This document shows positions 61,226 to 63,813 of a stretch of DNA of 64,000 bases, one piece after another. Within the stretch, counting starts at the first letter, position 1; each line of letters begins with the position of its first letter. The notes beneath the pieces are model-generated. The model saw only the letters and a program-made list of their open reading frames with translations, ran no database searches and had not been told where the DNA came from. The translations under genes were made by a program, and so were the position numbers. The DNA is from Phycisphaerales bacterium (GTDB taxonomy: Bacteria; Planctomycetota; Phycisphaerae; WQYP01). Location of the stretch: NCBI GenBank assembly GCA_027451365.1, contig DAIDJN010000041.1, positions 1 to 64,000 of the forward strand. Reading direction: 5' to 3'.

Positions 61226-61352
61226 CTCGGCCGATGGGCTTGATGGCCCGATACTGGTGTTGCACTGCATGTTGGGCCGGCCTCATGGCCCAAACCAGCC
61301 ATCGTCCATGTGTTGGCACAGGGATTGTGATGGAAACTGGTGGAGTGATTTT

Positions 61353-62720
61353 ATGCGTATGAAATTTTTCGGCTGTATGGCTGCCCTGAGTATGGCGTGC
61401 ATGTTGTCGCTTGTTTTTGCGCCGCGCGGTGCGGTTGCGGCCCCAGCGGCCCCTTTGGCAAGCCCTTCCAATCTGCCGCAGTTTACCAAGGCCAACCCCG
61501 CCCCGCATCCATTTATGGGGTGGAGCAGTTGGAGTTCAATTCGCGGCGGAGTGGATGCGAAAATTGTAAAGGCTCAGGCCCGCCTGATGGCCAAACGGCT
61601 CAAACGTTTCGGATACGACTATATCAACATCGACGCCGGCTGGCAGCAGGGCTATGACCGCTATGGACGCCCGAAGCCCAATCTGAAAAAGTTTCCAGGC
61701 GGAATTGCGACTCTGGCCAAATGGATGCACAATCGCGGATTAAAGCTGGGAATTTATCTGGTGCCGGGACTTCCCAATTCGGTTTATCAGGCCAACGATC
61801 CGATTTTTGGCACCCATTACACCGCGCGGCAAATCGTCTATAAAAGATATAAACATGGCAACACGCTTTCTACAAGAAGTTACAAATTGAATTTTCACAC
61901 CCCGGGCGCTATGGCCTATCTGCAAAGTTGCGCTGATTTGTACGCTCACTGGGGAGTGGATTATATCAAATTGGATTTCGTGGGACCCGGTGGCGGCGAC
62001 TGGCCTTACGGCCGGGTTGACACCCGCTCGGAAATGGCTCATTTGTCCCTGGCGCTAAGTCGCTCCGGCCGACCGATATGGCTGGAACTTTCCAACAGAC
62101 TCAGTTTCAAATATGCCGCCTTCTGGGCCAAATACGCCAATGGTTGGCGCACCAACGGCGATATCGAAAGTTATCAGCATGATCTGACTAACTGGACCCG
62201 GGTAATGGTGCGTTTTAACAAGAACGCCCGATGGGCTCCTTATGCCGGCCCCGGCGGCTGGAACGATTTTGACTCTCTGGAAATCGGCAACGGAAAGCTC
62301 GATGGGTTGACGCCCGTTGAAAGTCAAACCGTCATGATTTTCTGGTGCATCAACTGCTCGCCGCTTTGCCTGGGTACCGATTTAACGCGCCTTACGCCCG
62401 GTGGCTTCAAAATGATTACCAACAAAGCCGCTATTGCCATCGACCAGGCCGGCCATGTGGCCAGGCCACTTTCCCAGAAAACCCCGCAGCAGGTGTGGGT
62501 TATTCACCACGCCGACGGTGCTTGCACGGTGGCCCTGTTCAACCTCGCCAAAACAGCGGCCAGGGTCGGCGTAACTTGGCGGCAACTGGCCTTGGCCAAG
62601 TCTACCGCTGCCGTCAAAGACCTCTGGGATGGAAAAAAAATGGGCACGCTTTCCCACGGCTTTAGCGCAACCCTGCCGTCCCACGGCTCACGACTCCTGC
62701 AGATAACTCCATCACACTAG
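61353..62720 (+). CDS. Secreted GH27 glycosidase, paralog of 53674-55023
   Basis: MGWSSW, NIDAGW, KLDFVGPGGG, WRTNGDIE, GWNDFDSL. Confidence 0.9.
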   Translation: MRMKFFGCMAALSMACMLSLVFAPRGAVAAPAAPLASPSNLPQFTKANPAPHPFMGWSSWSSIRGGVDAKIVKAQARLMAKRLKRFGYDYINIDAGWQQGYDRYGRPKPNLKKFPGGIATLAKWMHNRGLKLGIYLVPGLPNSVYQANDPIFGTHYTARQIVYKRYKHGNTLSTRSYKLNFHTPGAMAYLQSCADLYAHWGVDYIKLDFVGPGGGDWPYGRVDTRSEMAHLSLALSRSGRPIWLELSNRLSFKYAAFWAKYANGWRTNGDIESYQHDLTNWTRVMVRFNKNARWAPYAGPGGWNDFDSLEIGNGKLDGLTPVESQTVMIFWCINCSPLCLGTDLTRLTPGGFKMITNKAAIAIDQAGHVARPLSQKTPQQVWVIHHADGACTVALFNLAKTAARVGVTWRQLALAKSTAAVKDLWDGKKMGTLSHGFSATLPSHGSRLLQITPSH

Positions 62721-63010
62721 CCACCGGTGAATACAGATATTTGCAGCGCATAGAAGCCGGTCCCGGGAATTGCATGTTCAAACAGAACGCTCCCCGCGGA
62801 ATGAACCGAGGTCTTTACGCGGGCGGTAGCACCGGCTTAACGTGATCATCTATCAACGATGCGGCCTGCAATCAGGGCCGGCAGGCCATACGGCGATGCC
62901 ACGCCGTCATATCACCGATTGGCATCAGCAAAACTATCCGACCCTGGCTAACCGCCACTATCGCTTTGGCCGACTGGCCGAGAAATCGAAAAGACAAATA
63001 TTAAGTAAAC

Positions 63011-63813
63011 GCCGGCGGGCGGGACGCCCGCACCACAAGCGATCATCCGCAGCGTCGTGGCTGCGGCCCTTTTGAAACGCCGGCAGGCGAGACGCCTGCA
63101 CCACAAGCGATCATCCGCAATGTCTTGCCGTGGCCAATTTGAAACGCCGGCAGGCGGGACGCCCGCACCGCAAGCGACGGGTCATCCGCAATGTCTTGCC
63201 GTGGCCGAGTTGAAACGCCGGCAGGCGGGACGCCCGCACCACAAGCGACGGGTCATCCGCAATGTCTTGCCGTGGCCAATTTGGAACGCCGGCAGGCGGG
63301 GACGCCTGCACCACAAGGTGATAATCTTTTGCCTCTTTGCGAGATGGTTTGATTTGAAACGCCGGCAGGCGGGACGCCCGCACCACAAGCGATCATCCGC
63401 AGCGTCGTGGCTGCGGCCCCATTGAAACAAACCCTTGGGGGTCGGGACTCTGGCCCGACAAATCATAATCTGCGGCGTTGGGGTGCGGCCCATTTGAAAC
63501 GCCGGCAGGCGGGACGCCTGCACCACAAGCGATCATCCGCAGCGTCGTGGCTGCGGCCCCATTGAAACTCCTTCTTTGTCGGCTCCCCAGCGGAATCCGG
63601 CTAGTCATCCGCAATGTCTTGCCGTGGCCGAGTTGGAACGCCGGCAGGCGGGGACGCCCGCACCACAGGCGACGGGTCATCTGCAATGTCTTGCCGTGGC
63701 CGAGTTGGAACGCCGGCAGGCGGGGACGCCTGCACCACAAGGTGAGACTCATTTGCCTCTTTGCGAGAGGGTTTGATTTGGAACGCCGGCAGGCGGGACG
63801 CCTGCACCACAAG
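63011..63813 (+). CRISPR. Degenerate CRISPR-like / REP mosaic array (11 repeat-like units, 10 REP-like units, 2 unique spacers)
   Basis: 37-nt ATCATCCGCAGCGTCGTGGCTGCGGCCCCATTGAAAC at 63392-63428 and 63532-63568, each followed by a unique 35-36 nt spacer. The other 36-37 nt units end in TTG(A/G)AAC and are followed by GCCGGCAGGCGGGACGCCYGCACCACAAG. No cas genes in the window. Confidence 0.6.

What the first reader, a model, noticed from the sequence alone, without database searches (positions are those of the whole stretch)
63011..63813. CRISPR-like array with inverted logic: variable repeats and a reiterated REP-like 'spacer'
Seen: a ~67-73 nt period with three repeat classes, all ending TTG(A/G)AAC. 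Class A is ATCATCCGCAGCGTCGTGGCTGCGGCCCCATTGAAAC with a CCGCAGC/GCTGCGG stem (63042, 63392, 63532, degenerate copy at 63465). Class B is GTCATCCGCAATGTCTTGCCGTGGCCRAKTTGRAAC (63110, 63181, 63252, 63604, 63676). Class C is ...TTTGCCTCTTTGCGAGAKGGTTTGATTTGRAAC (63324, 63748). The two perfect ATTGAAAC repeats are followed by unique spacers (63429-63464, 63569-63603). Every diverged repeat is followed by the same element GCCGGCAGGCGGGACGCCYGCACCACAAG, padded to spacer-like lengths of 31-36 nt. Known: class A resembles type I-G (I-U) repeats; the constant element is a GTGG-footed REP-type hairpin on the minus strand; atypical repeats flanking self-targeting guides occur in CAST and CreA/CreR systems. 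Inference: either REP elements repeatedly invaded spacer positions of a decaying array, or the locus encodes guides against a multicopy genomic REP family.
Basis: partly seen in the sequence, partly recalled or inferred. Interest (0 to 1): 0.8.

Follow-up and report, generated by a model that had tools for sequence, protein, structure and literature searches.

The report
Decayed CRISPR array overrun by REPs
A leftover CRISPR array in an uncultured bacterium has had nearly all its virus-memory slots filled by copies of one small palindromic genome repeat (a REP), most likely by decay and copying at the array's old end rather than as a working guide system; related bacteria show what look like earlier stages of the same process.

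Summary
The array is real: 11 repeats of 36-37 nt and 10 REP copies, period about 71 nt. Class A is a genuine CRISPR repeat: it forms a normal array in relative G028 and lies beside a type III-B operon in G019. Class B derives from A; class C only marginally. 'Unique' spacer 1 is itself a reversed REP variant. The same REP-B/REP-C module also forms the old (trailer) end of this genome's type I-G array on contig C42. In G028 the oldest 35-nt spacer, between two decayed A repeats, is a chromosomal REP-like copy (35/35): a plausible starting state. Best reading (0.6): a REP-bearing old-end spacer, fixed by repeat decay, then tandemly amplified and swapped between two loci. Against anti-REP guides: no TTN PAM at seed-matched REP copies, no leader, no adjacent cas genes, B/C not found in 44 relatives. 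Enrichment of hairpins at old ends was not significant in an unbiased test (P=0.20). This scan noted REPs at an array's old end once before, in another genome (e1-7033698); ten literature searches found no description.

The parts
63011..63813 (+). Whole mosaic: 11 CRISPR-derived repeats, 10 head-to-tail REP units, 1 reversed REP variant, 1 unique spacer; intergenic between an alpha-galactosidase-like ORF (61257-62720 +, name by resemblance, not scanned) and a 731-aa ORF starting at genome position 64051 (+)
63011..63039 (-). First REP unit (GTGG foot and 7-bp stem read on the minus strand); no full repeat before it, only an AAAC remnant
63042..63078 (+). Class A repeat with intact hairpin and two changes near the 3' end; followed by REP 63079-63107
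   Evidence: hairpin pair probability about 0.65 in context
63110..63287 (+). Three class B repeats (63110, 63181, 63252) alternating with REP units (63146, 63217)
   Evidence: B is A-derived, shuffle p at most 0.0035
63288..63360 (+). 36-nt REP spacer and class C repeat (63324-63360)
63392..63428 (+). Perfect class A CRISPR repeat; 36 of 37 nt identical to the repeat of the G028 array
   Evidence: Rfam CRISPR-DR16 21.4 bits, below its gathering score of 35
63429..63463 (+). Spacer 1: reverse-oriented REP variant with a GGGG-type foot, not a unique spacer
   Evidence: 27/27 match to C63:44852-44878; family members on C19, C26, C68, C83
63464..63500 (+). Decayed class A repeat (A'), followed by REP 63501-63529
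63532..63568 (+). Second perfect class A repeat; part of a roughly 140-nt internal duplication
63569..63603 (+). Spacer 2: the only unique spacer (35 nt); no target found
63604..63813 (+). B-REP-B-REP-C-REP block; best match to the tail of the host I-G array on C42 (92.7% over 205 nt)

Best explanation
A decayed orphan CRISPR array whose old-end unit, a degenerate repeat plus a 35-nt REP-bearing spacer, was tandemly amplified. Steps: (1) a class A array held a REP-bearing segment as an old spacer (inferred for this locus; the state is seen directly in G028 and G024). (2) The repeats beside it decayed into B and probably C (B shown, C weak); decay would both blunt self-targeting and stop deletion by repeat misalignment, so such a unit persists at the old end (inferred from published rules). 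(3) The unit was reiterated head-to-tail, as REPs with flanking DNA are elsewhere in this genome, and recombination in the shared block of repeat 3' end plus REP kept that block uniform while the rest drifted: this gives the 'inverted logic' (pattern shown, process inferred). (4) The module passed between this locus and the trailer of the host I-G array on C42; since B is closer to A than to the I-G repeat, the direction was probably from an A-type array to C42 (inferred). Its likely effect, if any, is that of REP hairpins at an RNA 3' end, not immunity.
For: Class A is a real repeat: 6 exact copies with unique 33-35 nt spacers in G028, 1 in G019 beside cmr1/cas10/cmr3/cmr4/cmr6. B vs A shuffle p 0.0005-0.0035, vs I-G 0.023-0.071, vs I-C not significant (the A reference there was shifted by one base). 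REP units 94% identical on average, A vs B 72%, A vs C 53%. 31-nt spacer = 35-nt spacer less 4 nt; TTGAAAC/TTGGAAC and 3G/4G loop alleles occur with both B and C and in both loci. C42:78400-78950 holds 8 REP units and 7 B/C repeats directly after the last perfect I-G repeat. REP family: 79 hits at 45 loci vs 1 per shuffled genome in 3 shuffles; 11 loci multi-copy, with unrelated linkers at C19, C41:140 kb, C68, C83. G028's oldest spacer lies between two decayed A repeats and is 35/35 identical to an intergenic copy on G028:C127, with 5 near copies in a non-CRISPR cluster of G063. G024's last spacer (35 nt) has the same foot and stem as this REP; G001 and G003 trailers show hairpin plus repeat-remnant reiterations with 58- and 118-nt spacing. 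Literature passages: REP clusters reiterate singletons with flanking DNA (PMC3733652); mutated repeats and missing PAMs defuse self-targeting spacers (PMC6509639 citing Stern 2010); last spacers are deleted less, perhaps through mutated last repeats (PMC11472070).
Against: No RAYT/Y1 gene in this genome (93% complete) and none of 20 Y1 loci fetched from relatives carried this REP pattern, so the mobiliser is unidentified. Class C is only marginally like A (ungapped p 0.03-0.14). Unit length stays at CRISPR period and both repeat ends are kept in B and C, which selection for processing would also give. The unbiased test of old-end hairpins was not significant: 2 of 13 array ends vs 5 of 96 internal spacers with stems of 7 bp or more, P=0.20; the 4 of 13 REP-like ends were judged by eye. 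The G024 element is single-copy and the G001 element nearly confined to its trailer. Whether the founder entered through Cas1-Cas2 or by REP insertion is not shown.
Confidence: 0.6

Rival explanations
1. REP cluster first: a REP landed next to a terminal CRISPR repeat by ordinary REP spread, never as an acquired spacer, and tandem reiteration captured repeat DNA as linker; the 71-nt period is coincidence. The end state is the same as in the best explanation; the entry differs.
For: G001 and G003 reiterate hairpin plus a 3' repeat remnant at non-CRISPR spacing, 58 and 118 nt; G003's copies lie beside a Y1/RAYT-like gene. REPs sit 16 nt after the last I-G repeat on C42, 13 nt after the terminal I-C repeat on C56, and 6 nt after a terminal repeat in L066, none in spacer register.
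Against: REP-bearing segments are 35-36 nt here, in G028 and in G024, matching native spacers of 33-37 nt; in G028 and G024 a single copy lies between two repeats.
Confidence: 0.2
2. Functional atypical array: host I-G Csb2 cuts the intact A hairpins (and perhaps B/C) in trans, giving REP-directed crRNAs that bind REP loci without cutting, or decoy RNAs that occupy Cascade.
For: Csb1, Csb2, Cas3g and Cas4g/1g are present. A shares its 7-bp stem and a 17-nt block with the host I-G repeat. Csb2 binds the hairpin, not the 8-nt handle (PMC9638904 passages), so 63042 could be cut despite handle changes. A hairpins fold in context (0.63-0.99). One copy of the module is in line with the I-G array.
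Against: B and C lose the hairpin (-3 to -9 vs -14 kcal/mol). REP spacers fold on themselves (-10 to -17 vs mean -5 for 20 native spacers). 0 dispersed copies with at most 1 seed mismatch have a TTN PAM; best target C86:9284 has TAA (ungapped search, 4G variants not matched to 3G copies). No leader-like match upstream and no sigma-70-like site before the array. No Cas10 or PF03787 RAMP hit in the genome. B/C in 0 of 44 family genomes.
Confidence: 0.12
3. Plain false-CRISPR tandem repeat or assembly chimera, with chance likeness to CRISPR repeats.
For: 11 of 12 inter-repeat segments are REP-type; no cas genes or leader nearby; no public contig spans the array; Rfam scores are below gathering.
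Against: 36-nt exact identity of A to a normal array in G028; B significantly A-derived; locus-specific B alleles on C41 and C42; a variant contig joins flank and array.
Confidence: 0.05

Closest known systems
Tandem (head-to-tail) clusters of GTAG-superfamily REPs with flanking DNA (Di Nocera et al. 2013, PMC3733652; section 5 and passages read); BIMEs (PMC2817692, start of abstract only)
   Same: Foot tetranucleotide (GTGG variant) plus 7-bp stem, multicopy and extragenic; single REPs reiterated in tandem with flanking DNA; mosaic of a few conserved linkers.
   Different: Linkers are CRISPR repeats or their decayed forms, at CRISPR period; REPs are head-to-tail, not alternating as in BIMEs; both clusters are tied to CRISPR arrays; no RAYT gene found in the genome.
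Decayed orphan CRISPR arrays and trailer ends with mutated repeats beside self-targeting spacers (PMC6509639 passage citing Stern 2010, which was not read; PMC11472070 and PMC6610086 passages)
   Same: Real repeat, degenerate old-end repeats, self-matching spacers without a PAM, spacer-repeat duplication.
   Different: One self-matching spacer reiterated 10 times here and 8 times at a second array; the spacer is more conserved than the repeats; the module is shared by arrays of two repeat types.
False-CRISPR tandem repeats (Zhang and Ye 2017, PMC5294841, passages read)
   Same: Repeat-spacer look without diverse spacers or neighbouring cas genes.
   Different: The repeats here descend from a true CRISPR repeat.
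Atypical-repeat guides: CreA/CreR and CAST homing spacers (recalled, no paper read)
   Same: Diverged repeats keeping the 3' end, flanking a self-matching guide.
   Different: Those are short, conserved units beside a cas or transposon locus with one defined target; this is long, shuffled, not found in 44 relatives and without a PAM-flanked target.

Membership tests
CRISPR array | Regularly spaced 36-37 nt repeats related to a bona fide CRISPR repeat | tested here: met
   A identical over 36 nt to the G028 array repeat; B A-derived
CRISPR array | Class C derives from a CRISPR repeat | tested here: inconclusive
   10-12 of first 30 positions match A, p 0.03-0.14
CRISPR array (active) | Diverse unique spacers | tested here: not met
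   1 of 12 segments is unique
CRISPR array (active) | Leader and adjacent cas genes | tested here: not met
   Only 11-16 nt matches of the flanks to 3 leaders and 2 other flanks; ORFs of 50000-70000 read by eye show no cas genes (not HMM-scanned); cas1 hits lie on C29, C48, C81 only
CRISPR array (active) | Processing into crRNAs | not testable with these tools
   Needs small-RNA data
Type I-G guide array | TTN PAM beside seed-matched targets | tested here: not met
   0 for all 9 spacer variants tested; TTN from PMC9638904 passage
REP (GTAG superfamily) | GTAG-like foot plus 6-9 bp stem, short loop | tested here: met
   GTGG foot, 7-bp stem, 3-4 nt loop on the minus strand; GTGG feet are described. 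Match to a numbered family was not tested (figure not seen)
REP (GTAG superfamily) | Multicopy and dispersed | tested here: met
   79 hits, 45 loci, vs 1 in each of 3 shuffles; present in relatives
REP (GTAG superfamily) | Cognate RAYT/TnpA-REP gene flanked by the REP | tested here: inconclusive
   None in G000; PF01797 hits in 41 of 44 family genomes; 0 of 20 fetched loci carry this REP pattern
BIME | Regularly spaced REPs with conserved linkers | tested here: met
BIME | REPs in alternating orientation | tested here: not met
   10 of 11 REP-type elements point the same way
CreA/CreR-type regulatory mini-array (features recalled) | Conserved two-repeat unit beside a cas operon | tested here: not met
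   11 repeats, no cas nearby, B/C in 0 of 44 family genomes
CAST homing guide (features recalled) | Tn7-like transposase genes in the locus or genome | not tested
   No Tns/TniQ search was run

The most novel reading that the evidence does not exclude
REP palindromes are a recurring, unrecognised class of old-end CRISPR spacer, and in this lineage the decayed-repeat plus REP unit has become a small non-autonomous element that spreads between CRISPR arrays by repeat homology; riding on the I-G pre-crRNA, it is cut at surviving hairpins and yields REP-directed or decoy RNAs that load Cascade without causing self-cleavage.
Probability: 0.12. Interest if true: 0.8.

Novelty: new variant of a known kind. 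Interest (0 to 1): 0.45.

Why it matters
It links two repeat classes usually treated apart. If REP-bearing spacers are often fixed at old array ends, as G028, G024 and this genome suggest, that gives a testable route by which arrays die and turn into REP clusters, a source of mis-called arrays, and a hint that REP DNA feeds spacer acquisition. The function of this locus itself is probably slight; the interest lies in the recurring process, which is suggested here but not statistically established.

Tried and rejected
No RNA holder listed. Exact junction pattern (repeat end, 3 nt, REP): 0 hits in genome contigs and 0 in metagenome contigs (own and very near records may be left out). I-G-type repeat end plus hairpin in genome contigs: 2 hits, one REP after a terminal repeat (L066), one ordinary spacer with a hairpin (L065). 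Phylum sample: 3 of 400 other genomes hit, none in an array. Spacer 2: no credible hit in phages, plasmids or viral contigs. REP pattern in viral contigs: 3 hits, not opened. 28 native I-G and I-C spacers have no second match in the genome, so no PAM could be derived locally. Synteny: best alpha-galactosidase-like matches in G001 and G028 have other downstream genes, so no empty site was found. X5 covers only 62652-62843. PF03787 missed the I-G Csb1/Csb2 RAMP proteins later found by NCBIfam, so its blank is weak; the Cas10 blank is the better test. Literature: searches returned no paper whose listing describes REPs as reiterated CRISPR spacers; most subscription papers are not in the library, and no supplements or figures were seen (the REP family figure of PMC3733652 bears on naming this REP). 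Rejected: coding explanation (ORFs over the array are short overlapping read-throughs); 'unique spacer 1'; strict BIME membership.

Full report
Observation. The window is G000:C41:1-64000. All 9 diverged repeats are followed by the element; the 2 perfect class A repeats are followed by other sequence. TRF gives period 71, 10.5 copies. The elements are 94% identical on average, whereas A vs B is 72%, A vs C 53% and B vs C 58%: the 'inverted logic' is real. One public contig with strain differences joins the upstream gene to the array start; none listed spans the array, and the three good runs are one mine-drainage study that may be the source.

The repeats. Class A is a true CRISPR repeat. A 36-nt pattern found it in 2 of 44 other family genomes: six exact copies with unique 33-35 nt spacers in G028, and one exact copy plus a partial one in G019 next to cmr1, cas10/cmr2, cmr3 (below its cut-off), cmr4 and cmr6. 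Rfam gives only a sub-threshold CRISPR-DR16 match. A shares its stem and a 17-nt block with the host's I-G repeat, 27/37 overall. B is A-derived (shuffle p at most 0.0035, keeping the last 7 nt fixed; the reference was one base off in that run) and fits the I-G repeat less well (p 0.023-0.071). C has A's length and start but is only marginally similar (p 0.03-0.14). B and C no longer form the A hairpin.

The constant element. On the minus strand it is a GTGG foot followed by a 7-bp stem, the build of GTAG-superfamily REPs (PMC3733652, section 5 read). A broad pattern finds 79 hits at 45 loci against 1 in each of 3 shuffled genomes; 11 loci are multi-copy, several with linkers unrelated to CRISPR, as are tandem clusters in G055 and G027. 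Spacer 1 (63429-63463) is a reversed variant of the family, with a 27/27 match on C63, so only spacer 2 is unique; it has no credible target. No Y1/RAYT gene was found in this 93%-complete genome, though 41 of 44 relatives have PF01797 hits; 0 of 20 fetched loci carry this REP pattern.

A second copy. The host has type I-G (C29: csb1, csb2, cas3g, cas4g/1g), I-C-like (C81; hits below cut-offs) and Cas12b (C48) loci and no Cas10 hit. The I-G array on C42 ends in 8 REP units alternating with 4 C and 3 B repeats and a truncated repeat start. That C29 and C42 hold two parts of one array is inferred from identical repeats at contig ends. B alleles are locus-specific, while handle and loop alleles are mixed across B, C and both loci: expansion within each locus plus exchange through the shared block. 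The 31-nt spacers are the 35-nt spacer less 4 nt, so few founders are needed. The I-C array on C56 also has a reversed REP variant 13 nt after its terminal repeat. With 43 other REP loci in about 574 kb outside long ORFs, a rough hand estimate of a REP within 100 nt of a given array end is under 1%.

Relatives. B and C were found in 0 of 44 family genomes, and the exact junction in neither large collection. But similar states exist. I fetched 20 regions at I-G/A-type repeats; 3 ran into contig ends, 5 were two-repeat mini-arrays, 1 showed no end; the other 11 plus the G028 and G019 class A arrays gave 13 ends. Four look REP-bearing by eye. G028: the oldest spacer, 35 nt between two decayed A repeats, is 35/35 identical to an intergenic copy on G028:C127 and within 2-3 mismatches of 5 copies in a non-CRISPR cluster of G063. 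G024: the last 35-nt spacer has the foot and stem of this REP with another loop, but is single-copy there. G001 (same genus): a hairpin plus 3' half-repeat three times at 58 nt, with only 2 weak matches elsewhere. G003: a hairpin after the terminal repeat, twice, beside a Y1-like gene. An Acidobacteriota array ends the same way with one REP. Against: an unbiased stem count gave 2 of 13 ends (first 36 nt) vs 5 of 96 internal spacers, P=0.20; 3 hits in 400 phylum genomes were not arrays; 119 metagenome loci held no reiterated case.

Mechanism. Shown: CRISPR origin of A and B, REP nature of the spacer, two loci, allele mixing, a single-copy precursor-like state in G028. Inferred: a REP-bearing segment became an old spacer; neighbouring repeats decayed, which defuses self-targeting (PMC6509639 passage citing Stern 2010) and lowers deletion (PMC11472070 passages); the unit was then reiterated as REPs with flanking DNA commonly are and passed to the I-G trailer. 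Confidence 0.6. Entry by plain REP insertion with the same outcome: 0.2.

Function as guides (0.12). For: Csb2 is present and recognises the hairpin rather than the handle (PMC9638904 passages); A hairpins fold in context; repeat ends and unit length are kept. Against: no TTN PAM at any dispersed copy with at most 1 seed mismatch, for 9 spacer variants; strongly self-folding spacers; no leader-like sequence or promoter-like site upstream; no conservation in relatives. CreA/CreR and CAST are recalled comparisons; no paper on them was read and no Tn7 gene search was run.

Novelty. It works like a tandem REP cluster and descends from a CRISPR array; it fails tests for an active array and for a strict BIME. 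Ten literature searches listed no description; the library lacks most subscription papers. An unchecked note of this scan reports REPs at the old end of arrays in another genome (e1-7033698). The label Phycisphaerae/planctomycete for this genome comes from earlier notes and was not tested. Verdict: new variant of known kinds, interest 0.45.

Noticed in passing
L229, L236, L240, L242, L244 (G010, G068, G065, G028, G068): Two atypical repeats flank a similar 35-nt spacer in four relatives; the conservation suggests a regulatory mini-array of the CreR kind (name recalled). Neighbouring genes were not checked.
   Followed up: no
L047:2840-3020 (G028:C38): A second copy of the decayed repeat / REP spacer / decayed repeat block lies about 1.1 kb from the array end, with part of the neighbouring gene start duplicated; the gene after the array is an RtcR-like sigma-54 activator.
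   Followed up: partly
L093:300-370 (minus strand): A GTAG-footed REP-like hairpin lies between one full and one truncated I-C-like repeat, away from any array.
   Followed up: partly
G000:C29:1-126: The I-G array breaks off into a sequence that looks like an insertion-element end at the contig edge; not identified.
   Followed up: no
L238 (G009:C38): A long array in which most repeats differ from one another while spacers look unique.
   Followed up: no
window:63871-63900: Near-consensus sigma-70-type promoter (11 of 12) downstream of the array, facing the two-partner-secretion-like genes beyond the window (gene names by resemblance).
   Followed up: no
G000:C41:140000-141200: Another tandem cluster of the same REP family with unrelated linkers, already noted by this scan.
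   Followed up: partly
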